Shown here: positions 1,958-56,745 of the stretch, piece after piece
Position numbering within the stretch: position 1 is the first letter of the stretch
Layout of the letters: every line of letters starts with the position of its first letter
DNA from: Minisyncoccota bacterium
GTDB lineage: Bacteria; Patescibacteriota; Minisyncoccia; Phycocordibacterales; UBA9973
Assembly (NCBI GenBank): GCA_039915165.1
Contig: JBDSNU010000018.1
Coordinates: forward strand, 2,064-66,063
Reading direction: 5' to 3'
DNA: 64,000 nucleotides
Program-made: the position numbers and the translations under genes
Notes under the pieces: generated by a model
The model's database searches: none
What the model was told of the DNA's origin: nothing
What the model saw: the letters and a program-made list of their open reading frames with translations, nothing else

Positions 1958-2000
1958 ACAGGGATTCTATCATATTCCAGGTCCTATAAGGCGGGTACGC

Positions 2001-2031
2001 AAAAACCCTCACGTTAGACGTGAGGGTTTTT
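2001..2031. terminator. Palindromic hairpin with flanking A/T runs (aaaaaccctcacg..cgtgagggttttt), bidirectional intrinsic terminator
   Basis: Perfect inverted repeat flanked by A5 and T6, between the tsaE start and the end of the 680-aa surface protein gene. Confidence 0.6.
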
Positions 2032-2049
2032 GGGAACTCAGTGTGCTAA

Positions 2050-6732: not shown

Positions 6733-8451
6733 ATGTATACTATAGCCATGGTTCAGTTTGACGAAAGTGATCAACTCAAAAGAATAACAAATCTCCGTGA
6801 AGAAGAAGAGGAAGAAGTTGTAGCAATGCTCGCTCAACAACAGTATGGATTGCAATATACCAACCTCATCTCACAATCAATCGACAATGATGCAATTCGC
6901 CTGCTTACCGAAGAACAAGCACGAACATTTGACGTAGGTCCCTACAAATTGATCGACAAAAAACTTTTCTTAGCGGTACGTTCTCCAAATGCCGATGGCG
7001 CGATCAAAGCAAAAGAGTTGATCGAAGGAGAAGGGTATGAAGTACTATTTGTCATGACCAGCGAAAAAAGTATTGAAAAAGTATGGACTCACTACAAAGA
7101 CCTCTCATATGCTACTCGTTCACGCGCAGGGGGTCTCGATGTTTCTCCTGATGTATTACTCAACCTTAGTCAGACAGTGAAAACAATGGAAGACGCCATG
7201 AAAGTAATTACTGATGCGGTGAATGAAAGTAGTACTGTGCACCACCTGTCGCGTATTTTAGAAATTATCCTTGGGGCAGGGATTGGTATTGGCGCATCTG
7301 ATGTACACGTAGAACCAATGCAAGATGAAGTTGAAATCCGTTTTCGTTTAGATGGAGTACTTCATATCATCACAAAGGTAAATTTCGATACATATAAACA
7401 AATCAATACGCGTATTAAATTATTGTCTGGCTTGAAATTAACTATTAATTCAGTTCCCCAGGATGGACGTTTCAGTGCATTTCTTGGGACAGATGAAATT
7501 AGTTTTCGTACATCAATGATCCCAGGAGCATACGGTGAATCCATTGTGCTTCGTATCTTGAATCCAAAATCCATCCGAGTACAACTTGATGCGCTCGGTA
7601 TTTCTGCGCCACTGTTTGATATTTTTATGAAAGGTATTACCAAGCCAAACGGTATGGTACTACTGACTGGCCCGACAGGTTCCGGTAAAACAACAACACT
7701 GTACGCATTTTTGCAAAAAGTATTTAGTCCGGAATTAAAAATTATTACTATTGAAGATCCTATTGAATACCATCTTGCTGGTATCACACAAACACAAGTA
7801 GATCATAAAAAAGGATATACATTCTTGGAAGGCTTGCGTTCAGCGCTTCGTCAGGATCCGGACATTATCATGGTGGGAGAAATCCGTGATTCAGAAACAG
7901 CGAAGATTGCAGTTGAGTCTGCGTTGACGGGCCACATTGTGTTCTCAACACTTCACACCAATAATGCTTCCGGGGTGATTCCACGTTTGATCGACCTCGA
8001 TGTTAATCCAAAGATTTTAGTATCAGCGCTTTCTCTTTCAATTGCACAACGTTTGGTTCGTGTGCTTTGTAAAAACTGTAAGTATGAACGACCAATTACT
8101 CCAGAAGAAAAAGCGACTGTTGATATGGTCTGGAATGATGCCGTAGCGAATGGTAAAAACATGGACCAGTTCGGTGTACATCGAGACGTAACAACAGTGT
8201 GGGCAGCTCAAGGTTGTGAAGTTTGCGGCATGACAGGATATAAAGGACGACTGGGTGTTTTTGAAGTAGTAGAAATGGACGCCAATATCGAACACATTAT
8301 TCTTGCCAACCCTACTGAACGCGACATCAAAGCAATAGCCGACAAACAAGGCACCCTCGACATGCGCGAAGACGGTATCATCAAAATCTTACAAGGAATC
8401 ACCGACTTCGCGGAGCTGGCTTCTGTGGTGGACCTGAGCGAAAGAAAATAA
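6733..8451 (+). CDS. pilB: Type II/IV secretion system ATPase (GspE/PilB family), likely type IV pilus assembly ATPase
   Basis: GspE N-terminal domain. Walker A LLTGPTGSGKTTTL, Asp box, His box. C-terminal tetracysteine motif CKNCKY...CEVCGMTGYKGR. Confidence 0.85.
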   Translation: MYTIAMVQFDESDQLKRITNLREEEEEEVVAMLAQQQYGLQYTNLISQSIDNDAIRLLTEEQARTFDVGPYKLIDKKLFLAVRSPNADGAIKAKELIEGEGYEVLFVMTSEKSIEKVWTHYKDLSYATRSRAGGLDVSPDVLLNLSQTVKTMEDAMKVITDAVNESSTVHHLSRILEIILGAGIGIGASDVHVEPMQDEVEIRFRLDGVLHIITKVNFDTYKQINTRIKLLSGLKLTINSVPQDGRFSAFLGTDEISFRTSMIPGAYGESIVLRILNPKSIRVQLDALGISAPLFDIFMKGITKPNGMVLLTGPTGSGKTTTLYAFLQKVFSPELKIITIEDPIEYHLAGITQTQVDHKKGYTFLEGLRSALRQDPDIIMVGEIRDSETAKIAVESALTGHIVFSTLHTNNASGVIPRLIDLDVNPKILVSALSLSIAQRLVRVLCKNCKYERPITPEEKATVDMVWNDAVANGKNMDQFGVHRDVTTVWAAQGCEVCGMTGYKGRLGVFEVVEMDANIEHIILANPTERDIKAIADKQGTLDMREDGIIKILQGITDFAELASVVDLSERK

Positions 8452-8456
8452 AGATT

Positions 8457-8485
8457 TAATAAATGGGGTCTGACCCTATTTATTT
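8457..8485. repeat. REP-like palindromic element copy 1 (aaatggggtctgaccctattt)
   Basis: Near-perfect palindrome. Two further copies at 9047-9071 and 17401-17429. Read in frame it encodes the spurious N-terminal MGSDP of the ORF called at 8463. Confidence 0.55.
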
Positions 8486-8516
8486 TTTCTTGAACGCCGT
8501 GTGCCAGAATAGATAC

Positions 8517-9080
8517 ATGGCAAGAAAACTAAGAGATAATTCAGGCGATCAATACTATCATATTATCAATCGTGCAAATGCACGTTTTAATATATTTAGA
8601 GATAGTAGTGATTATCAACTTTTTGAAAATGTCTTAATGGAAAGTCTCAGGAGATTTGAAATAAAACTTCTTACTCACAATATTTTATATAATCACTTTC
8701 ATTTTGTTTTGTATGTATATAAAGATGCTGAGATATCACGTTTTATGCACTGGCTTTCAACAGTTTTTATTTTGCGGTGGCACCAAAAACATCAATCTGT
8801 AGGAACAGGTCATCTGTTCCAAGGAAGATATAGATCATTTCCTATTAAAAATGAGCGCCATTTATTACAAGTACTTATCTACGTAGATAGTAATGCGGTA
8901 GCGGCTGGACTTGTTGAAAACGCCCAGGAGTGGCGATGGTCAGCTATCTGGATAAAAATAAATGGTAACTCTGAGCAAAAGAAAATGCTTGCTGAATGGC
9001 CTATAGATGTTCCTTTAGATTATCTCTACTTAGTAAATAAAAATAAAGAAATGGGGTCAGACCCCACTGGTTTAGAATAA
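8517..9080 (+). CDS. REP-associated tyrosine transposase (RAYT) / IS200-like Y1 HUH transposase
   Basis: HUH motif NHFHFVLYV. C-terminal catalytic helix LIYVDSNAVAAGLVENAQEWRWSAI, the Y..NPV.AGLV...W.WSS pattern of IS200/RAYT proteins. Flanked by REP palindromes. Confidence 0.75.
   Translation: MARKLRDNSGDQYYHIINRANARFNIFRDSSDYQLFENVLMESLRRFEIKLLTHNILYNHFHFVLYVYKDAEISRFMHWLSTVFILRWHQKHQSVGTGHLFQGRYRSFPIKNERHLLQVLIYVDSNAVAAGLVENAQEWRWSAIWIKINGNSEQKKMLAEWPIDVPLDYLYLVNKNKEMGSDPTGLE
9047..9071. repeat. REP-like palindromic element copy 2 (aaatggggtcagaccccact)
   Basis: Same core as copies 1 and 3 with the centre flipped (tc/ag). Confidence 0.55.
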
Positions 9081-9109
9081 AAACACCGAGACAGTGTCTC
9101 GGTGTTTTT
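9080..9109 (+). terminator. Intrinsic terminator (aaaacaccgagacagtgtctcggtgttttt)
   Basis: Perfect palindrome with flanking A/T runs directly after the RAYT stop. Confidence 0.6.
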
Positions 9110-9356
9110 ATAGTTTTGCTTATATTGTTTTTAATCAATAACGGTTTTTACAAAAAAATTCACTAATCTCTAAACAGTCCTTATACGTGCGTTGACGTAT
9201 AAGTAAAGCATGATTATAGGATGGCTCCAGTCGGAACCAAAACGTCCTGCGCAAACACTTAGAACCTGTGGCTGACTGCTTAGAGATTAGTACGCTCTTT
9301 TGTAGTAGAATGTAGTTGTTATTGATCTAGTAATAGGATAGCATAGATAACAACTT

Positions 9357-14868: not shown

Positions 14869-17391
14869 ATGATTGATGGTATGAAAGAACATAAACAACA
14901 TAATGGATTTCCTTGGAAAAAGGTTCTATTTGCATTACTTGCACTTGGATTATTAGGGATCGGAGCAGTATTAATTTGGGCTAGTTTTATTAAACTCCCC
15001 GATATCTCCACTTTTGAGGCCAGACAGATTGCCAATTCATCAAAAATCACTGACCGAACTGGGCAAATAGTACTCTATGATGCTCATCAATCAGTAAAAA
15101 GAACGCAAATCCCATTGGCGAGTATGGGTGACCCTATTCAAAAAGCTGTGATCTCTATCGAAGATCAGGACTTCTATCACAATAGTGGTATTCGACCTAC
15201 ATCAATCTTGCGCGCAGTATTTGTAAACATTATCCATGTTGGATATGTACAAGGAGGTTCTACTATCACTCAACAGATTATTAAAAATACACTGCTCAAC
15301 GGTGATAAATCTGTTGCGCGTAAATTGAAAGAATGGGTATTGGCTGTTCGTCTCACTCGCCAATTTAGTAAAGACCAGATTTTGGAAATCTATCTTAATG
15401 ATGCCCCTCTTGGTGGAACAGTATATGGTGTTGAACAAGCATCACAATCATATTTTGGAATTCCTGCTGCTCAACTTGATTTGGCACAAGCTGCTTATAT
15501 TGCTGCTATGCTCCCTGCTCCAACATACTACTCCCCTTTTGGTTCACACAAAAAAGATCTTGATAGTCGAAAAAATCTTGTCCTTTCAAAAATGAAGCAA
15601 TATGGCTATATCACTAGTGATCAAATGGCTGCTGCAAAAACTGAAGTGGTTGCGTTCAACCAAGCAAGCAATACTGGTGTGAAAGCTCCTCACTTTGTTT
15701 TTTATATTCTTGATCAACTTGAACAAAAATATGGTAAAGACGTGTTGGATAATGATGGATATACAATTAAAACTACTCTTGATTATGATCTTCAACAAAA
15801 AGCTGAGCAGATCGTAGCGACTCAAGTAGCCGCAAATGAAAAACAATACAACGCTTCAAACTCTAGTTTAGTTGCTATTGATCCAACTACAGGACAAATC
15901 CTTACCATGGTTGGTTCTCGTAATTATTTCGACAAACAAATTGATGGTGCTTACAATACTGCTACTGCTCAACGTCAACCGGGTTCATCATTTAAACCAT
16001 TCGTCTATGCCACTGCTTTTGCAAAAGGATATACGCCCGAGACAGTAGTGTTTGATGTGCCTACAGAATTCTCTACAAATTGTACGCCTGACCAACAACC
16101 ACTTGCTGGTTTTACCTCGAAAGATTGTTATAACCCTGCTAACTTTGATAATAAATTCAAAGGCCCAATATCTCTTCGCAGTGCTATAGCTGAATCACGA
16201 AACGTGCCTTCAGTGAAACTTCTTTATTTAGTGGGTGTACAAAATGCTGTTGATTTTGCTCATGCATTAGGTATTACTACACTAACTAATCCTGCTGAAA
16301 TTGGTTTATCACTCGTGCTTGGTGGAGGCGAAGTAAAACTACTTGATATGACTAGTGCGTACGGTGTATTTGCAAATAGTGGTGTACGTAATCCAACAAC
16401 AGGTATTCTTGAAGTCGATGATAATAATGGGAATATTCTTGAACAATATCAACCCAATCCAACATCTGTCATGGATAAAAATGTAGCATTAACAATGAAT
16501 AATGTTCTATCTGATGCACAAGCTCGTATTCCTACATTCGGTACAACACTTATCACTATCCCAGGTGTTGCAGTAAAAACTGGTACAACAAACAGTGACC
16601 GTGATGCCTGGACTGTTGGATACACTCCTTCTATCTCAATTGGTGTATGGTCAGGTAACAATGATAATAAACCGATGAAAAGTGGTGGTTCTGCAATCTC
16701 TGGACCAACATGGAAAATGTTCATGCAATATACATTAACTAAATATCCAAATACTGCTTTTGAAGAACCCGTACCTGATCCAGATGCAAATACTTTGAAA
16801 CCGATCTTACGGGGTATCTGGATAGGTAACGAAACAGTTAAAGTTGATAAAGTAACAGGATTACGTGCTACAGATACAACACCTGCTGATGCAACAACTG
16901 AAAAAGTAATAACTGATGTACATGATATCCTTTATTGGGTAAATAAATCTGATCCTCATGGACCAATACCAACCAATCCAAGTAGCGATCCCCAGTTCCA
17001 TCTTTGGGAACCCTCTGTACAAACATGGTGGGCAAACAATGCTGGGAAATATAATAGTGTTAGTAGTGCTGATATTCCTGCATCATATGATACAGCGGGC
17101 ACTGCCGGTACCACCTCACCATTAAGCTTAAGTGGTATTTCAGATACTATGAATCTTAATGACAATGCCGAAATATCTGTAACAACATCTGCACAATACC
17201 CTCTTACTAGTGTTGATGTACTTATCGATAATAGTTACGTTGCTACACTCCCTGCACCATTTCATTTCGTATTTACACCAAGTGATTATAATTTAAAAAT
17301 TGGTCCACATACTATAACGTTCAACGCTACTAATAGTGTGTATGGTAAAAGTACTATCACAAAAAATATAACTTTTGTTCAAGGAACATAA
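14869..17391 (+). CDS. Class A penicillin-binding protein (transglycosylase + transpeptidase) with a ~200-aa C-terminal extension
   Basis: N-terminal TM; GT51 motifs EDQDFYHNSGI and RQFSKDQILEIYLN; transpeptidase SxxK (GSSFKP), SRN, KTGTT. Confidence 0.85.
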   Translation: MIDGMKEHKQHNGFPWKKVLFALLALGLLGIGAVLIWASFIKLPDISTFEARQIANSSKITDRTGQIVLYDAHQSVKRTQIPLASMGDPIQKAVISIEDQDFYHNSGIRPTSILRAVFVNIIHVGYVQGGSTITQQIIKNTLLNGDKSVARKLKEWVLAVRLTRQFSKDQILEIYLNDAPLGGTVYGVEQASQSYFGIPAAQLDLAQAAYIAAMLPAPTYYSPFGSHKKDLDSRKNLVLSKMKQYGYITSDQMAAAKTEVVAFNQASNTGVKAPHFVFYILDQLEQKYGKDVLDNDGYTIKTTLDYDLQQKAEQIVATQVAANEKQYNASNSSLVAIDPTTGQILTMVGSRNYFDKQIDGAYNTATAQRQPGSSFKPFVYATAFAKGYTPETVVFDVPTEFSTNCTPDQQPLAGFTSKDCYNPANFDNKFKGPISLRSAIAESRNVPSVKLLYLVGVQNAVDFAHALGITTLTNPAEIGLSLVLGGGEVKLLDMTSAYGVFANSGVRNPTTGILEVDDNNGNILEQYQPNPTSVMDKNVALTMNNVLSDAQARIPTFGTTLITIPGVAVKTGTTNSDRDAWTVGYTPSISIGVWSGNNDNKPMKSGGSAISGPTWKMFMQYTLTKYPNTAFEEPVPDPDANTLKPILRGIWIGNETVKVDKVTGLRATDTTPADATTEKVITDVHDILYWVNKSDPHGPIPTNPSSDPQFHLWEPSVQTWWANNAGKYNSVSSADIPASYDTAGTAGTTSPLSLSGISDTMNLNDNAEISVTTSAQYPLTSVDVLIDNSYVATLPAPFHFVFTPSDYNLKIGPHTITFNATNSVYGKSTITKNITFVQGT

Positions 17392-17400
17392 ATAAAGAAA

Positions 17401-17429
17401 AAATAAATGGGGTCTGACCCCATTTATTT
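17401..17429. repeat. REP-like palindromic element copy 3 (aaataaatggggtc-t-gaccccatttattt), also a convergent terminator
   Basis: Perfect 14-bp arms around the same core as copies 1 and 2, between the PBP stop (17391) and the convergent 83-aa gene end (17435). Confidence 0.6.
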
Positions 17430-17434
17430 TTTCT

Positions 17435-17686
17435 TTATTGCACTTGGTGGATTTTCACTCCTGAGTCTTGGAGAGCTTTCAGTATTTTTGCATTATTAAG
17501 CATTAGTACCATCTTTACTGTTGGAGAAGCTTTGATTCTTAATATTCCTTTTACAATAGTGACCTGGTCTGGTTGGATAGTTGTTTTCACAATATCACTA
17601 ATGATCTTGGCACTATCTTCAGTTACAGCACCATCTTTTGTAATCTTATCTTTTAATTGAGAGAGGATCGATTGAAAAAGATCCAT
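17435..17686 (-). CDS. Small protein (83 aa) immediately downstream of dnaN; possible DUF721/DciA-like helicase-loading factor
   Basis: Position directly after dnaA-dnaN. Weak DUF721-like C-terminus VKGILRIKASPTVKMVLMLN. Confidence 0.4.
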   Translation of the reverse strand: MDLFQSILSQLKDKITKDGAVTEDSAKIISDIVKTTIQPDQVTIVKGILRIKASPTVKMVLMLNNAKILKALQDSGVKIHQVQ

Positions 17687-46070: not shown

Positions 46071-46092
46071 AGTATAAGTATACACTGAAAAC

Positions 46093-46125
46093 AAAAACCC
46101 TCTTATGTATATAAGAGGGTTTTTG
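46093..46125 (-). terminator. Intrinsic terminator (aaaaaccctcttatgtatataagagggttttt) after rpsO
   Basis: Perfect hairpin with flanking A/T runs. Confidence 0.6.
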
Positions 46126-46146
46126 TCTCGAGTAATCGAGTGTTTA

Positions 46147-51021: not shown

Positions 51022-51051
51022 GTACTAATAACAGTTAAACTATAGCATTTG

Positions 51052-51108
51052 CCGCACAAATAGCAAAAACCCTCAGATGTAATCTGAGGGTTTTTGCTAT
51101 TTGTGCGG
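51052..51108. repeat. 57-nt perfect palindrome (26-bp arms, 5-nt loop) between tRNA-Arg and tRNA-Gly; contains a canonical terminator core
   Basis: ccgcacaaatagcaaaaaccctcaga-tgtaa-tctgagggtttttgctatttgtgcgg. The right arm overlaps the last 5 nt of tRNA-Gly(GCC). Confidence 0.75.
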
Positions 51109-51174
51109 CTACAGAGAATCGAACTCTGGTCTCGTCCTTGGCAAGGACGCATTCTACCACTAAACCATAACCGC
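51104..51174 (-). tRNA. tRNA-Gly (anticodon GCC)
   Basis: Cloverleaf: acceptor GCGGTTA/TAGCCGC, anticodon stem CGTCC/GGACG with loop TTGCCAA, T arm CAGAG-TTCGATT-CTCTG. Confidence 0.8.
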
Positions 51175-51897: not shown

Positions 51898-51970
51898 CGG
51901 GATGTGGTGTAACGGCTAACATGCCTCTTTTGGGAAGAGGTGACTCAGGGTTCGAATCCCTGCATCCCGA
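51898..51970 (+). tRNA. tRNA-Pro (anticodon TGG)
   Basis: C1:G72 acceptor CGGGATG/CATCCCG, anticodon stem CCTCT/AGAGG with loop TTTGGGA, T arm CAGGG-TTCGAAT-CCCTG. Confidence 0.85.
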
Positions 51971-52006
51971 CACTGAGGGAACTACAAAAAAATCAAAAAA
52001 ACCCAT

Positions 52007-52037
52007 ACAAAATAAGGTCTATACGACCTTATTTTGT
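52007..52037 (+). terminator. Hairpin terminator after tRNA-Pro (acaaaataaggtc-tatac-gaccttattttgt)
   Basis: Perfect 13-bp inverted repeat. Confidence 0.55.
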
Positions 52038-52054
52038 ATTCCGCGTCAAAGGGG

Positions 52055-52078
52055 AGATAGGGATTAGAACTGTGTATG
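52055..52078. repeat. Inverted, degenerate copy of the tRNA-Pro 3' end (ggggagatagggattagaactgtg)
   Basis: Reverse complement cacagttctaatccctatctcccc against tRNA-Pro 3' agggttcgaatccctgcatccc. Confidence 0.4.
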
Positions 52079-52124
52079 CACTATAAAAAAAGCGGCCAAT
52101 ATATTGGCCGCTACCTAGTTTTCG

Positions 52125-52532
52125 TTAAACGATTGAATTTATCGCATTTTCATATTCTTGGATCTCTTTATCTACTTCCGTCAAAACACTTTCCTGTACT
52201 TTTTGAAACCTTTTGGTTTTAATTGATCGGAGATCTTTTTTGAGCAGCTTTCGAGCGATTTTCTTCTTCTTCGCAACAGTGCTAAAGATCTTTCCAACGT
52301 TGTACATTACAATCAAGGAATAAATTATTCCCATTGTGTAAAAATAGAGTCCAAAATCTAATCGGCCTATAAATTTATTGAACAGGCACTCTACTAGTAG
52401 GGTGCCAATGGTTCCACCTATGGCCACTGAAATTATTAACTTTATTATTTTTTCAACTTTACTATTTACTTTGATAGAAGCTTTTTTGATTGCGCTATCA
52501 ATTAAGTACTGTGATTCAGGTGTATTTTTCAT
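52125..52532 (-). CDS. Small membrane protein (135 aa), unknown; followed by palindrome agcggccaatatattggccgct
   Basis: Two predicted TM helices and a Lys-rich C-terminus; terminator-like perfect palindrome at 52091-52112. Confidence 0.4.
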   Translation of the reverse strand: MKNTPESQYLIDSAIKKASIKVNSKVEKIIKLIISVAIGGTIGTLLVECLFNKFIGRLDFGLYFYTMGIIYSLIVMYNVGKIFSTVAKKKKIARKLLKKDLRSIKTKRFQKVQESVLTEVDKEIQEYENAINSIV

Positions 52533-52705
52533 ATTGTTATGTTTTAAGGGTTATCTAAAAACCCCTTCATTAGATTCTTAGAAAGCCCTTAAAACAATTT
52601 AAAAGAACATTTAAATAGTATCACGATTTTAGTAAAATGTCAATATCTCATGATACATTACAATATCAAAAAAAGCCCTAAAATGAGCTTGTTGTATAAC
52701 GTTGG

Positions 52706-52880
52706 ACTACATGTCTAAATCTTGGAACGAGTCTGTACTCTCAGGATGTTTGGTGCACAGCCTAACATAGCCCAGCAACAGACTAGCTTTCTCGTATGTT
52801 TCACGATCAGAGAGTTCAATGCCGTAAAGTTTCTTGCATAACTCTTTAAATGTTTGCAGTCGATGAGGTTTGATTTCCAT
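52706..52880 (-). CDS. Mini-gene (57 aa), paralogue of 53761..53958; unknown function
   Basis: Frame chosen by paralogy: MEIKPHRLQTFKELCKKLYGIELSDRETYEKASLLLGYVRLCTK against MQIKPERLKIFKELYKEMHGVELTDAEAYKSASALLGFVSLCIK. The ORF-track frame at 52715-52936 is a different, unsupported frame. Confidence 0.4.
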
Positions 52881-53009
52881 AAGGCATAGATTACAGTTAT
52901 TTGGACTTTTTGCAATGTCACGTCTGTGTTTTTCATTTTGACAACGGACAGCTAAAACTCTCCTGCTAAAAAAGCACCCGGTATTAAGGGGTGCTTTGGG
53001 GTGCGAATC

Positions 53010-53216
53010 TTAGCATTCTCGTAAACCAGTTCTGAAATGTTTGAACACAAGAACTGTTGCCGCAATGAAGGAAATACAACCGAGCGGAATTCCTAATGGG
53101 ATTTCTTTATACGTGCTGTAAACAATAGTGCCGAGTATTCCACCAAGAACTGTACTTGCTGTGCCCATCAATATCATAAGTATTACTGACTGCACATTTG
53201 GAGATAGATATTTCAT
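53010..53216 (-). CDS. Small hydrophobic protein (68 aa, two TM)
   Basis: ORF with hairpin terminator aagcaccc..gggtgctt downstream. Confidence 0.35.
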   Translation of the reverse strand: MKYLSPNVQSVILMILMGTASTVLGGILGTIVYSTYKEIPLGIPLGCISFIAATVLVFKHFRTGLREC

Positions 53217-53525
53217 AGTCGCGGGATTTTATTTATTGCATTGTGCAATATTTTTTTATATAAGTCAATAAATATGCTGCCTCCCGGAGTTGCCTTTCAA
53301 ACCTGCATTGTATATAGTATTCACAGTCAAAAAGAGTGTACTTTAAACTATTCCTTTTTGGGTAAATGTTCGGTAAAAGTTCTAATGTGATCCCTAAGGG
53401 ACGACACTGATCGATTGCGATCATGGTAAAATAAAATAGTAATGTTACGCAGATAAAAGCGGGCATTGTCGCGCCGAAGTTGAAACGAAGTTCGCCTCCG
53501 TTCTCCGAACTTCGGCCCAACGAAG

Positions 53526-53596
53526 GCGGGTATAGTTTAGTGGTAGAATGACACACTTCCAATGTGTAGACCAGGGTTCGATTCCCTGTACCCGCA
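53526..53596 (+). tRNA. tRNA-Gly (anticodon TCC)
   Basis: Acceptor GCGGGTA/TACCCGC, anticodon stem ACACA/TGTGT with loop CTTCCAA, T arm CAGGG-TTCGATT-CCCTG. Confidence 0.85.
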
Positions 53597-53686
53597 CAAT
53601 ATCGAACCGTCTTTTCGGTTCACCGCTTCTTGTAAAATAAAGCCCGTTCGACAATACTCTCATTTTTTCGTCAATGAAAATGACAA

Positions 53687-53706
53687 ACGGGTATAGGGAA
53701 TCGAAC
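53687..53706. repeat. Inverted degenerate copy of the tRNA-Gly(TCC) 3' end (cgggtatagggaatcgaact), ~95 bp after the tRNA
   Basis: Reverse complement agttcgattccctatacccg matches tRNA 3' ggttcgattccctgtacccg at 18 of 20 positions. Confidence 0.5.
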
Positions 53707-53723
53707 TGTATATTCCTTATAAA

Positions 53724-53751
53724 CAAAGCCCTCTCAAACATGAGAGGGCTT
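53724..53751 (-). terminator. Hairpin terminator (aaagccctctca-aaca-tgagagggcttt) for the minus-strand mini-gene
   Basis: Perfect 11-bp stem with flanking A/T. Confidence 0.55.
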
Positions 53752-53760
53752 TGTTGCGAA

Positions 53761-53958
53761 TCACTTTCGTTCGACGACCTGTTTAGTATAGTAAAACTCT
53801 TCTGGCGTTTCCACTGGCTCAAGTGGTTTGATACATAGTGAAACAAATCCTAATAGGGCACTGGCACTTTTATATGCCTCAGCGTCCGTCAGTTCAACGC
53901 CGTGCATCTCTTTGTATAGTTCCTTAAATATCTTAAGGCGCTCGGGCTTGATTTGCAT
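53761..53958 (-). CDS. Mini-gene (65 aa), paralogue of 52706..52880
   Basis: Start at the internal MQIKPERLK, supported by alignment to the paralogue. Confidence 0.4.
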   Translation of the reverse strand: MQIKPERLKIFKELYKEMHGVELTDAEAYKSASALLGFVSLCIKPLEPVETPEEFYYTKQVVERK

Positions 53959-54008
53959 ATCATCGCAGAGTACAGGGTTTTCGGGGTTTTGCAAAGCGCC
54001 GCATTGCC

Positions 54009-54389
54009 TTGGCGGTGTCCGGTTCGGATTCGCCTATTAAGTTAAATATGGATCTGATACTATGTAGGAACTACGGCATGCTTTCAGAAGACCGAACATT
54101 TCAATACAGGGGAGTGCTAACCCTAAGGAAGAGCCGCGTTATCAACGCTCCCGACCGACCAGTGGACGACGTGGTCAACTGGCTCTTTCTTAGGGCGGGC
54201 GACGTGCAGTTCAGCTTCGTGTACAAGATCGAGCGTCCCGACGGTGCAGAATACGGAATTCCCTTTTCTGCGCATGTAGCATTCACGGCAACAGAGCATG
54301 TGCAGGAAATTCTTTTGCTGGACAAGGTGTACGAGGTCTTGAGAGGAGAAGAGCTCATCGGAAAGATTGTACTGGCTGAAAAACTGTAG
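54009..54389 (+). CDS. Hypothetical protein (126 aa) encoded in a GC-enriched (~50% GC) segment
   Basis: Clean ORF. Composition (cgaccgaccagtggacgacgtggtcaactgg...) clearly deviates from the AT-rich surroundings. Confidence 0.45.
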   Translation: MAVSGSDSPIKLNMDLILCRNYGMLSEDRTFQYRGVLTLRKSRVINAPDRPVDDVVNWLFLRAGDVQFSFVYKIERPDGAEYGIPFSAHVAFTATEHVQEILLLDKVYEVLRGEELIGKIVLAEKL

Positions 54390-54403
54390 CGCATGGCGGG
54401 TTC

Positions 54404-54438
54404 AAAAGTTCGCAACGTTATCCCTAAGTCCGCACCAA
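54404..54438 (+). repeat. Direct repeat A1 (aaaagttcgcaacgttatccctaagtccgcaccaa), resembles tRNA-Gly 3' end; second copy at 56711..56745
   Basis: 33 of 35 identical to the copy at 56711. The tail tccctaagtccgcaccaa resembles tRNA-Gly 3' tccctgtacccgcacaa. Confidence 0.55.
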
Positions 54439-54491
54439 CTCGTGCGCTCACGAGAAGCTTAGAAAAGCTCATTTTCTGATATAATTACAAT

Positions 54492-55274
54492 ATGGAAAAA
54501 CCACCCGGACCGATTGAAAACCCTGATCATGCATGGGAAGTGGCGCATGCTGAAAAGCCTCTTCGAGACATTGCTCGGGAAGAATGGGTGAGTGAAGATC
54601 AAAAGGAAGCTCTGGACGCACTTGCTGAGCAACGTGGCGAAGAGACGCTAAGTCAGCTTCTTTCGCAAGAAGTTCCACAAACCGATGCAAAATCAGAAAA
54701 TAACATCGAGTCTCACGAAGCCGTTGAAAAAATGATGGAGTTGGTAAAAAACAATCCGAACATCAATCTTATTATTGACGGTAACGGAAATGTTCTAGCT
54801 GAAGCAGGAGATAGAGATCGAAACGGTCAATCATCTTTTTATTTTGATACAAATAAGCAGCAGATGGTTCCTTCTCCAATAACTCTTGATTATGATATGC
54901 AAAGTTTTTCTAATAGAGATGAAAATTTTATCCCCTACAAGACTTATTGGAAGTTCACTACGCTTAACAAAAGCAGTAACAATCTTATTGTTGCCTGTCT
55001 CCCATTTAACCCTACTGTAAATAATCCCTATACCAAGGAGCATCGTCCTGGAACACACTTATCGTTTGGTTTAGCTTATAAAAACAACATACCTGGCTTT
55101 CTGGATTCACTTGGAAACGAGACATTGAAAGGATACTTACAAAACCCCGATACCGAAGAGTCTAAAAACTTCTTCACGAAAGTCTTTACTGAAGGCGCTA
55201 AAGAATTCACCCCAAAGTATTGGGAAGCTTTTGTTAACGATTACAATAGTTATAAGAATCATACTAGAAAGTAA
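54492..55274 (+). CDS. Hypothetical protein (260 aa)
   Basis: Clean ORF with no recognisable motif. Confidence 0.45.
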   Translation: MEKPPGPIENPDHAWEVAHAEKPLRDIAREEWVSEDQKEALDALAEQRGEETLSQLLSQEVPQTDAKSENNIESHEAVEKMMELVKNNPNINLIIDGNGNVLAEAGDRDRNGQSSFYFDTNKQQMVPSPITLDYDMQSFSNRDENFIPYKTYWKFTTLNKSSNNLIVACLPFNPTVNNPYTKEHRPGTHLSFGLAYKNNIPGFLDSLGNETLKGYLQNPDTEESKNFFTKVFTEGAKEFTPKYWEAFVNDYNSYKNHTRK

Positions 55275-55365
55275 AATTCACTAGCGCACGAGAAGAGTCA
55301 ATCTGATATACTTAAAACATTAAAAATAACCTTGCAGGGCAAGGAACTGTTCGGTTTTATCACGA

Positions 55366-55377
55366 GTACCCGCACAA
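55366..55377 (+). repeat. Exact 12-nt direct repeat of the tRNA-Gly(TCC) 3' end (gtacccgcacaa); attR-like core
   Basis: Identical to 53585-53596. Confidence 0.4.
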
Positions 55378-55463
55378 AATAAAAATGACATCGTCATTTT
55401 TCACTCATGCGAGACAATGCTTCGTTTTCAATACTTTTTCATTCTTGTCAAAAAATAGGCGAA

Positions 55464-55483
55464 CAGGTATAGGGAATCGAACC
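55464..55483. repeat. Inverted tRNA T-arm-like fragment (caggtatagggaatcgaacc) followed by an imperfect hairpin
   Basis: Same motif gtatagggaatcgaac as at 53690. Confidence 0.45.
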
Positions 55484-56710: not shown

Positions 56711-56745
56711 AAAAGTTCGCAACGTTGTCCCTAAGCCCGCACCAA
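56711..56745 (+). repeat. Direct repeat A2 (aaaagttcgcaacgttgtccctaagcccgcaccaa)
   Basis: Second copy of repeat A, immediately after the TrmB-like stop. Confidence 0.55.

What the first reader, a model, noticed from the sequence alone, without database searches (positions are those of the whole stretch)
8457..9071. REP-associated tyrosine transposase flanked by near-identical palindromes, with a third solo copy reused as a terminator
The IS200-like HUH transposase (HFHFV; Y..NAVAAGLV..W.WSA) sits between two copies of atggggtc[tg/ag]acccca. A third perfect copy (17401-17429) lies exactly between convergent genes. REP/RAYT systems are classically described in Proteobacteria. Finding one in this AT-rich genome, with the REP doubling as a terminator, is notable. 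It may mark recent horizontal acquisition or an active REP-dispersing system.
Basis: partly seen in the sequence, partly recalled or inferred. Interest (0 to 1): 0.6.

Follow-up and report, generated by a model that had tools for sequence, protein, structure and literature searches.

The report
Inherited RAYT-like gene with hairpin ends
A single-copy tyrosine "transposase" gene in a tiny-genome (Paceibacterota) bacterium is bracketed by its own hairpin repeats. It belongs to a type described in 2013 (TIRtron/TIRYT) and has been inherited vertically, so it is a real but ordinary feature.

Summary
The palindrome ATGGGGTCWGACCCCA occurs at three sites in 64 kb (0.06 expected by chance). Two sites bracket a 187-aa HUH/Y1 gene (8517-9080) and one is a solo 49-nt perfect palindrome (17391-17439).

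The gene is not an ordinary IS200. It groups with the published TIRYTs: 42% identity to Rhodopirellula rba_2408 against 19% to E. coli RAYT. Its predicted fold is closest to E. coli TnpAREP (4ER8). Its flanking repeats carry the published TIRYT motif GGGGWSAS. About 55 of 85 related loci show the same layout.

It was not acquired recently. Two other Paceibacteria genomes carry the gene at the same pilB-Y1-ruvB-ruvC position. Synonymous sites are saturated, omega is about 0.15-0.19, and both flanking cores are conserved.

The left copy looks like the pilB terminator. The solo copy fills the whole 43-nt gap between convergent stop codons, where a relative has an unrelated terminator hairpin.

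Dispersal in this genome appears weak: three copies in about 74 kb. The genome-wide count could not be obtained.

The exact 19-mer also occurs in at least 81 genomes of many phyla.

Verdict: a new member of a known kind (TIRtron; Bertels group 1; probably TnpAY1 subclass 2.1). Interest is modest.

The parts
8458..8484 (.). Left terminal repeat. Hairpin AATAAATGGGGTCTGACCCTATTTATT (core 8465-8477, one mismatch) followed by TTTTTTC. It also has the form of the intrinsic terminator of pilB (6733-8451).
   Evidence: Terminator-like with 12 pairs. RNA fold -16 kcal/mol, z -4.4. The same core sits at the same place in L001 and L205.
8517..9080 (+). HUH/Y1 gene of 187 aa, a TIRYT-type RAYT-like protein. 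HUH is H60-F-H62 and the catalytic Tyr is Y122 (YVDSNA). It lacks the roughly 30-aa C-terminal tail with RGRPKK that most relatives have.
   Evidence: (P0001 100% identical, annotated 'transposase', Ca. Paceibacterota).
9049..9067 (.). Right terminal repeat AAATGGGGTCAGACCCCAC (core 9053-9065, perfect), inside the last 10 codons of the ORF. The central base is A here and T in the left copy.
   Evidence: Weak hairpin on its own, -9 kcal/mol, z -1.5. In L205 and 16 other relatives the stop codon TGA lies inside this repeat.
9077..9111 (+). The gene's own, unrelated intrinsic terminator (ATAAAAACACCGAGACA G TGTCTCGGTGTTTTTAT).
   Evidence: I6; -22.4 kcal/mol, z -8.0.
17391..17439 (.). Solo copy: a 49-nt perfect palindrome (24-nt arms around GGGGTCTGACCCC) that fills the whole gap between the convergent stops of the PBP gene and an 83-aa ORF. 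Probable bidirectional terminator.
   Evidence: I2; D1, 91% identical to the left copy over 46 nt; -28 kcal/mol on both strands, z -8.6 and -8.1. The orthologous 43-nt gap in L001 holds a different hairpin.

Best explanation
This is a TIRtron: a single-copy, vertically inherited gene for a TIR-associated tyrosine transposase (TIRYT). That corresponds to Bertels' RAYT group 1 and probably to TnpAY1 subclass 2.1.

The gene is bracketed by two copies of its cognate hairpin-forming repeat, whose core GGGGTCWGACCCC fits the published TIRYT motif GGGGWSAS.

By analogy with E. coli TnpAREP, the protein is inferred to bind the repeat when it is extruded as a hairpin in single-stranded DNA. It would then cut and rejoin that strand through the HUH metal site and Tyr122, forming a 5'-phosphotyrosine intermediate. 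This step is inferred, not shown.

The solo 49-nt palindrome 8.3 kb away is a homologous copy of the left end. It arose in this lineage and sits where a relative has an ordinary terminator.

The host uses the hairpins as intrinsic terminators. The left copy ends pilB, and the solo copy serves the convergent PBP and 83-aa-ORF pair. This is inferred from anatomy.

The system is old and under purifying selection. It is not a recent arrival, and it appears to disperse only weakly in this genome.
For: Family membership:
- BLASTP against the published TIRYT/RAYT set gives rba_2408 42% (E 1e-49), dau_2153 39% and gbm_2474 36%, against eco_b228 19% (E 4e-4). An NJ tree places the protein inside the TIRYT clade.
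- The AF2 model has pLDDT 90.9. Its best PDB match is 4ER8 (TM 0.66/0.74), against about 0.48 for ISDra2 and IS608.
- NF047646 is the best NCBIfam model. Relatives P0018, L159 and L151 pass its cutoff.

Cognate repeats:
- The core lies at both flanks in the window and in syntenic L001 and L205, and also flanks more distant homologs in L041 and L159.
- About 55 of 85 related loci have 15-20+ nt inverted repeats at fixed positions.
- Strict GGGGWSAS is present upstream in 31 of 78 loci and at the ORF end in 32 of 74. Chance expectation is 0.009 per window.

Vertical inheritance:
- The order pilB-Y1-ruvB is shared by three genomes, and ruvC follows in the two where the downstream gene could be identified.
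- Identities are PilB 86%, RuvB 92%, RuvC 73% and Y1 63%. pS is saturated at 0.66-0.8 for all genes, and Y1 omega is 0.15-0.19.
- Only 13 distant hits were found in 72,556 plasmids.

Dispersal elsewhere:
- Solo and doublet copies occur in L036, L045, L029 and L061.
- The exact 19-mer was found in at least 120 stretches from 81 genomes, against about 4 expected.

Terminator anatomy.
Against: - No biochemical data exist for any TIRYT, so binding and cleavage are argued by analogy with a protein that is 19% identical.
- The window protein scores below the NF047646 cutoff (50.8 against 80).
- It has lost the roughly 30-aa C-terminal tail with the RGRPKK motif that most relatives keep. Its activity may therefore be altered or lost.
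- Only one solo copy was seen in about 74 kb.
- The source genome was not reached by the collection scan, so dispersal in this genome is unquantified.
- Terminator function rests on sequence anatomy alone.
- The Y motif reads YVDSNA, not the class-2 signature Y---NP.
Confidence: 0.8

Rival explanations
1. A relic. The Y1 protein is catalytically retired after truncation of its C-terminal tail. The hairpins persist only because the host needs them as terminators, and nothing moves any more.
For: - The roughly 30-aa tail with RGRPKK is missing in the window, L001 and P0002.
- Only one solo copy was found in about 74 kb.
- Y1 evolves faster than its neighbours: 63% identity against 86-92%.
- The gene's GC is 33.7% against 39.7% for the window.
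Against: - Omega is 0.15-0.19 across saturated synonymous divergence.
- HUH and Tyr are intact in all three orthologs.
- The right-hand core is conserved although it has no terminator role on the coding strand.
- The solo copy is lineage-specific, so at least one copying event post-dates the split from L001.
Confidence: 0.12
2. An ordinary autonomous IS200/IS605-type insertion sequence, recently acquired by horizontal transfer.
For: - Pfam names the domain 'Transposase IS200 like'.
- The gene is flanked by hairpins.
- Gene GC is lower than that of its neighbours.
Against: - The IS200 NCBIfam model scores 17.6 bits against a cutoff of 55.
- The Y motif is Y---N[AP], not the Y---Q of subclass 1.1 (PMC6006769).
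- In most related loci the end repeats are in inverted, not direct, orientation.
- The locus is the same in three genomes with saturated dS.
- The fold is nearer 4ER8 than IS608 or ISDra2.
- The gene lies inside long contigs, which argues for single copy.
Confidence: 0.03
3. The palindromes are merely convergent Rho-independent terminators, and their association with the gene is coincidental.
For: - The left and solo copies have A-tract/GC-stem/T-tract anatomy at gene ends.
- The window has other look-alike terminator families, such as AAAAACCCTCA...TGAGGGTTTTT (D8).
Against: - Three copies are observed against 0.06 expected.
- The right copy lies inside the ORF and is not a terminator for it.
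- The same core brackets homologous genes at 37-63% identity in other genomes and phyla.
- The GGGGWSAS enrichment across the family is far above chance.
Confidence: 0.05

Closest known systems
TIRtrons / TIRYT (TIR-associated tyrosine transposases), Di Nocera et al. 2013, PMC3733652
   Same: - The gene is RAYT-like and flanked by inverted repeats at a roughly constant distance.
- The repeats carry GGGGWSAS (here GGGGTCAG).
- Some repeats are self-complementary, and some overlap the 3' end of the ORF.
- Solo, dimeric and clustered copies reach moderate numbers in some genomes.
- The window protein is 36-42% identical to published members rba_2408, dau_2153 and gbm_2474 and clusters with them.
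   Different: - The host is a Paceibacterota (CPR) genome, which is not named in the sections of the 2013-2018 papers I read.
- The C-terminal tail is truncated.
- The repeat has become a perfect palindrome.
- The locus is shown here to be syntenic and under purifying selection, which was not addressed for TIRYTs in the passages I read.
TnpAY1 subclass 2.1 (Quentin et al. 2018, PMC6006769), equated there with RAYT group 1 (Bertels et al. 2017, PMC5581495)
   Same: - The motifs fit the second variant given for subclass 2.1: HuH NH[YF]H (here NHFH) and FQ (here LFQGRY).
- Copy number is low.
- Flanking 16-mers are moderately frequent (mean 12 per replicon for group 1).
- The host range is wide.
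   Different: - The median length of subclass 2.1 is 238 aa with a C-terminal HTH-like domain. The window protein is 187 aa, and Pfam finds no C-terminal domain.
- Quentin et al. reported no REP-like structures for subclass 2.1. Here the flanking repeats are clearly hairpin-forming.
- The Y motif is YVDSNA rather than Y[IV]HLNP.
Canonical REP/RAYT (REPtron), E. coli TnpAREP, PDB 4ER8; RAYT groups 2 and 3
   Same: - It shares the HUH/Y1 fold and is the best structural match.
- The gene is single-copy and vertically inherited, and it is bracketed by its own palindromes.
- The palindromes sit at gene ends and can act as terminators.
   Different: - Identity is only 19%.
- There is no 5' GT[AG]G tag on the repeats.
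- This genome has a few copies, not hundreds.
- The GTAG-reading residues are not conserved in subclass 2.1 according to PMC6006769.
IS200/IS605 TnpA (IS608, ISDra2)
   Same: It shares the HUH/Y1 catalytic core and the recognition of subterminal hairpins in ssDNA.
   Different: - In IS200/IS605 the end hairpins are in direct orientation on one strand. This is my own knowledge.
- The Y motif is Y---Q (PMC6006769).
- These elements are multi-copy and often accompanied by tnpB (PMC6006769).
- The fold match is weaker, TM about 0.48.

Membership tests
Y1 HUH transposase superfamily (Pfam PF01797) | Domain match above the gathering score, with HUH and a catalytic Tyr present | tested here: met
   50.5 bits against a cutoff of 23. 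H60, H62 and Y122 are invariant in 19 homologs.
TIRYT / TIRtron (Di Nocera 2013) | The protein groups with published TIRYT sequences rather than with RAYTs | tested here: met
   BLASTP gives rba_2408 42%, E 1e-49, against eco_b228 19%, E 4e-4. The NJ tree places it with rba_2408, dau_2153 and gbm_2474.
TIRYT / TIRtron (Di Nocera 2013) | The gene is flanked by terminal inverted repeats carrying GGGGWSAS | tested here: met
   GGGGTCAG lies at 9053-9060 on the + strand. The left copy reads AGGGTCAG on the - strand, one mismatch. The central bases are T and A, so the two copies are mutually inverted.
TIRYT / TIRtron (Di Nocera 2013) | The repeat forms a dispersed family in the same genome (an optional feature in the original description) | tested here: inconclusive
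   One solo copy in about 74 kb. The source genome was not reached by the scan.
TnpAY1 subclass 2.1 (Quentin 2018) | Motifs NH[YF]H / FQ / Y[IV]HLNP | tested here: inconclusive
   NHFH and FQ are present. The Y motif is YVDSNA, and the family consensus is YVERN[AP]. No subclass HMM was available.
TnpAY1 subclass 2.1 (Quentin 2018) | C-terminal HTH-like domain (Bac_DnaA_C, HTH_23 or HTH_28) | tested here: not met
   Pfam finds only Y1_Tnp in the window protein and in 9 relatives. The window protein lacks the tail altogether.
Canonical RAYT (NCBIfam NF047646, equivalog) | Score at or above the curated cutoff of 80 bits | tested here: not met
   50.8 bits. Relatives P0018 (81.8), L159 (85) and L151 (86.4) pass.
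Canonical REP (GTAG-tagged) | A 5' GT[AG]G tetranucleotide at the foot of the hairpin | tested here: not met
   No GT[AG]G lies at the foot of the left or solo copies. GTGG occurs only as part of the right copy's stem on the - strand.
Canonical REP/REPIN system | High copy number, tens to hundreds per genome | not testable with these tools
   Only about 74 kb of the source genome was accessible.
IS200 (NCBIfam NF033573; TnpAY1 subclass 1.1) | Score at or above 55 bits, Y---Q motif, and multiple near-identical copies | tested here: not met
   17.6 bits. The motif is Y---N. The gene is single and syntenic in three genomes.
Intrinsic terminator | GC-rich stem plus a T-run directly downstream of a gene | tested here: met
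   The left copy on the + strand and the solo copy are listed as terminator-like. Fold z-scores are -4.4 and -8.6. Actual termination was not tested.

The most novel reading that the evidence does not exclude
TIRYT-type Y1 proteins may recognise one nearly universal hairpin. The identical 19-mer AATGGGGTCWGACCCCATT turns up in at least 81 genomes of many phyla. It lies next to Y1 genes that are only 23-38% identical to this one.

In streamlined CPR genomes the system may be kept because it seeds and maintains compact bidirectional terminators.

That would make it a host-beneficial 'terminator-dispersing' enzyme with a conserved DNA code. Canonical RAYTs, in contrast, each have their own REP family.
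Probability: 0.15. Interest if true: 0.55.

Novelty: new member of a known kind. Interest (0 to 1): 0.3.

Why it matters
The finding places a published but little-studied element type (TIRtron/TIRYT) in the Patescibacteria.

It also gives a clean case for domestication. The locus is the same in three genomes although synonymous sites are saturated. Omega is about 0.17, and the flanking hairpin cores are conserved. That is the pattern argued for RAYTs in general, here seen in a genome under strong streamlining.

The family-wide anatomy gives concrete substrates for the first biochemical test of a TIRYT:
- the GGGGWSAS hairpin lies about 50 nt upstream of the start (median of the strict motif matches);
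- the stop codon lies inside the right repeat in many members;
- ragged partial duplications lie just outside the ends.

It does not change current understanding of REP/RAYT biology.

Tried and rejected
- **Exact-sequence look-up of the Y1 protein.** Neither the window translation nor P0001 is on record, so the 292-kb source contig could not be fetched.
- **Collection scan for a genome-wide count.** None of them aligns to the window. Edge proteins gave only about 10 kb more from a Logan contig, with no further copies.
- **PDB search by sequence.** Only a marginal hit to 4ER8, E 0.64. The fold search was needed.
- **Rfam.** Nothing meaningful for the conserved non-coding stretch 9160-9300, at gathering or E-value thresholds.
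- **Relaxed core pattern.** GGGGTCWGACCCC with up to 3 mismatches found no further copies in the window.
- **Literature.** No paper in the searchable library describes RAYT or TIRYT elements in the CPR. One 2026 preprint mentions the KEGG label only for an archaeon.
- **Rejected ideas.** Recent horizontal transfer (synteny and saturated dS), an ordinary IS200, and coincidental terminators.
- **Failed call.** One protein comparison failed because of a frame error and was not repeated.

Full report
**What is in the sequence**

The window is about 40% G+C. It comes from a Candidatus Paceibacterota MAG: the ORF product is 100% identical to P0001, which NCBI annotates as 'transposase' on a 292-kb contig.

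The ORF runs 8517-9080 on the + strand and encodes 187 aa. The mechanical ORF begins at an ATG inside the left palindrome, but NCBI and the homolog alignment support 8517. The product matches Pfam Y1_Tnp at 50.5 bits against a cutoff of 23.

The pattern ATGGGGTCWGACCCCA with up to 2 mismatches occurs at three sites, against 0.06 expected.
- The left copy (hairpin 8458-8484) has one mismatch. It follows the pilB stop codon directly and is followed by a T-run.
- The right copy (9049-9067) lies inside the last ten codons of the ORF. The gene has its own, unrelated terminator at 9077-9111.
- The third copy is a perfect 24+1+24 palindrome at 17391-17439. It matches the left copy at 43 of 50 aligned positions, which is well beyond the GC core.
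- That third copy occupies the whole 43-nt gap between the stop of a PBP gene and the stop of an 83-aa minus-strand ORF upstream of dnaN.

**Which kind of Y1 protein it is**

- NCBIfam ranks REP_Tyr_transpos first (50.8 bits, below its cutoff of 80) and IS200 far behind at 17.6 bits.
- Several relatives pass the RAYT cutoff: P0018, and the genes in L159 and L151.
- An AlphaFold model built on 19 homologs has pLDDT 90.9. Its best PDB match is 4ER8, E. coli TnpAREP bound to a REP hairpin (TM 0.66/0.74). ISDra2, IS608 and IS200 transposases score about 0.48.

Di Nocera et al. 2013 (PMC3733652) described RAYT-like genes flanked not by GTAG-tagged REPs but by terminal inverted repeats sharing GGGGWSAS. 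They named these TIRtrons and their proteins TIRYTs. I took their published alignment and compared it with the window protein.
- The window protein is 42%, 39% and 36% identical to TIRYTs rba_2408, dau_2153 and gbm_2474 (E 1e-49 to 5e-39).
- It is only 19% identical to E. coli RAYT.
- A neighbour-joining tree places it and its homologs inside the TIRYT clade.

Quentin et al. 2018 (PMC6006769) equate the TIRYTs with TnpAY1 subclass 2.1, which corresponds to Bertels' group 1. They give the motifs NH[YF]H and FQ. The window protein has NHFH and LFQGRY. Its Y motif is YVDSNA, and the family consensus is YVERN[AP].

**The repeats are the gene's own**

In L001 (GCA_029288725.1) and L205 the gene sits at the same place, and GGGGTCWGACCCC lies at both flanks in the same positions. 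Their products, P0004 and P0003, are 59% and 63% identical to the window protein in the database search.

A metagenome scan found at least 593 relatives. In about 55 of the 85 loci held, the gene is bracketed by a 15-20+ nt inverted repeat.
- For the strict motif matches, the left motif starts a median of 49 nt before the start codon.
- The right copy overlaps or abuts the stop codon.
- The commonest form is AATGGGGTCAGCCACCATT on the left and its complement on the right. This is an imperfect hairpin.

Strict GGGGWSAS is present upstream in 31 of 78 loci and at the ORF end in 32 of 74, against 0.009 expected per window. In 16 loci the stop codon is the TGA inside CTGACCCC. The window's palindrome is therefore a symmetrised version of the family's terminal repeat.

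**Inheritance**

- The order pilB-Y1-ruvB is shared by the window, L001 and L205. ruvC follows ruvB in the window and in L001. In L205 the gene after ruvB is cut by the contig end and carries no annotation.
- Between these genomes PilB is 86% identical, RuvB 92%, RuvC 73% and Y1 63%.
- Synonymous differences are saturated for every gene (pS 0.66-0.81). For Y1, pN is 0.20-0.24, giving omega of about 0.15-0.19.
- Only 13 distant hits exist among 72,556 plasmids.

The gene is thus an old, vertically inherited resident under purifying selection. It evolves faster than its housekeeping neighbours, and its flanking cores have outlasted saturation of neutral sites. This matches the 'domesticated' profile that Bertels et al. 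report for RAYTs and contradicts recent horizontal acquisition.

One caveat applies. The window, L001 and P0002 have lost a roughly 30-aa C-terminal tail that ends in RGRPKK in most relatives.

**Dispersal**

In the window there is one solo copy. About 10 kb more of the same organism, from a Logan contig, adds none. The genome-wide count could not be obtained.

At the orthologous PBP/83-aa-ORF gap, L001 has a hairpin of the same size with a different GC core. The solo copy therefore arose, or replaced a terminator, in the window's lineage.

Related genomes show real dispersal.
- L036 has 13 copies in 8 kb.
- L045 has inverted doublets about 72 nt apart.
- L047 has a tandem array, and L029, L061 and L064 have further solo copies.

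The exact 19-mer AATGGGGTCWGACCCCATT was found in at least 120 stretches from 81 genomes, against about 4 expected under uniform composition. The hosts include Burkholderiales, Gammaproteobacteria, Lachnospiraceae, Actinomycetota, Acidobacteriota, Binatia, Opitutae, Bacillales and one Patescibacteria genome. In several of these it lies next to Y1 genes that are 23-38% identical to this one.

**How it most likely works**

Shown:
- the HUH and Tyr residues are intact;
- the fold is RAYT-like;
- the cognate hairpin repeats are conserved;
- one lineage-specific extra copy exists;
- the left and solo copies have terminator anatomy. Their folds are -16 and -28 kcal/mol with z-scores of -4.4 and -8.6, and the scan lists them as terminator-like.

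Inferred by analogy with TnpAREP and IS608:
- the protein binds the repeat as a hairpin in single-stranded DNA;
- it cuts and rejoins the strand through Tyr122.

Inferred from anatomy:
- the left copy terminates pilB;
- the solo copy terminates the convergent gene pair.

**Verdict**

However, the element belongs to an already described subtype. It is old rather than newly acquired, and its occurrence outside the Proteobacteria is expected for this group. I rate it a new member of a known kind, with modest interest.

Noticed in passing
window 9166-9295 (+); L001 10594-10729; L205 4752-4891: A non-coding element of about 130 nt between the Y1 gene and ruvB is 87-92% identical across three genomes whose synonymous sites are saturated. 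It folds into a long closing stem plus two hairpins, with 2 compensatory pairs among 3 sequences. Rfam gives no match. It is absent from the other Y1 loci, so it is probably a clade-specific structured RNA and not part of the element.
   Followed up: partly
L014 1661-1760; L005 526-625; L044 9901-10000; L058 9901-10000; L030 1998-2079; L047 1601-1735: Just outside the terminal repeats of many relatives lie ragged, nested partial duplications of the outer arm. One example is ATAATGAG ATAATGG ATAATGGG ATAATGGGGTCAG. Another is repeated units ending at GGGGTCA or starting at CTGACCCC. These could be footprints of repeated cleavage and rejoining, or of slippage, at or near GTCAG.
   Followed up: partly
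L205 4370-4395 and 16 other loci; window 9049-9080: In many family members the stop codon is the TGA inside the right repeat (CTGACCCC), and the last residues (…RGRPKK-N-G-x) are encoded by the repeat region. In the window the central base is A (AGA) and the frame is shifted, so the ORF reads through to …MGSDPTGLE*.
   Followed up: yes
L085-L204 (for example L096 1084-1224, L102 6142-6294): The exact 19-mer AATGGGGTCWGACCCCATT occurs in at least 81 genomes of many phyla (G+C of the fetched loci 32-74%). Copies are often clustered: a 61-nt period in a Casimicrobiaceae MAG, which has 25 core copies in 63 kb of fetched DNA.
   Followed up: partly
window 1995-2037, 46084-46133, 51051-51109: A second look-alike hairpin family (GCAAAAACCCTCA…TGAGGGTTTTTG) sits at other positions in the window. 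These are probably ordinary terminators that share A-tract/CCCTC stems.
   Followed up: no
window 54404-54438 and 56711-56745: A 35-nt direct repeat, 94% identical, with copies 2.3 kb apart (AAAAGTTCGCAACGTT[A/G]TCCCTAAG[T/C]CCGCACCAA). It lies near tRNA-like repeat fragments at 51949-55482.
   Followed up: no
window 8499-8516; L001 9982-10000: An in-frame start 6 codons upstream (GTG TGC … in the window, ATG TGC … in L001; P0003 begins MCHDTDM) is conserved among the closest relatives. The true N-terminus may therefore be M-C-x-x-x-x-M.
   Followed up: no
window 8517-9080: The Y1 gene has 33.7% G+C, against 39.7% for the window and 42-44% for pilB and ruvB. Given the synteny and saturated dS, this fits weaker constraint better than recent import.
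   Followed up: partly
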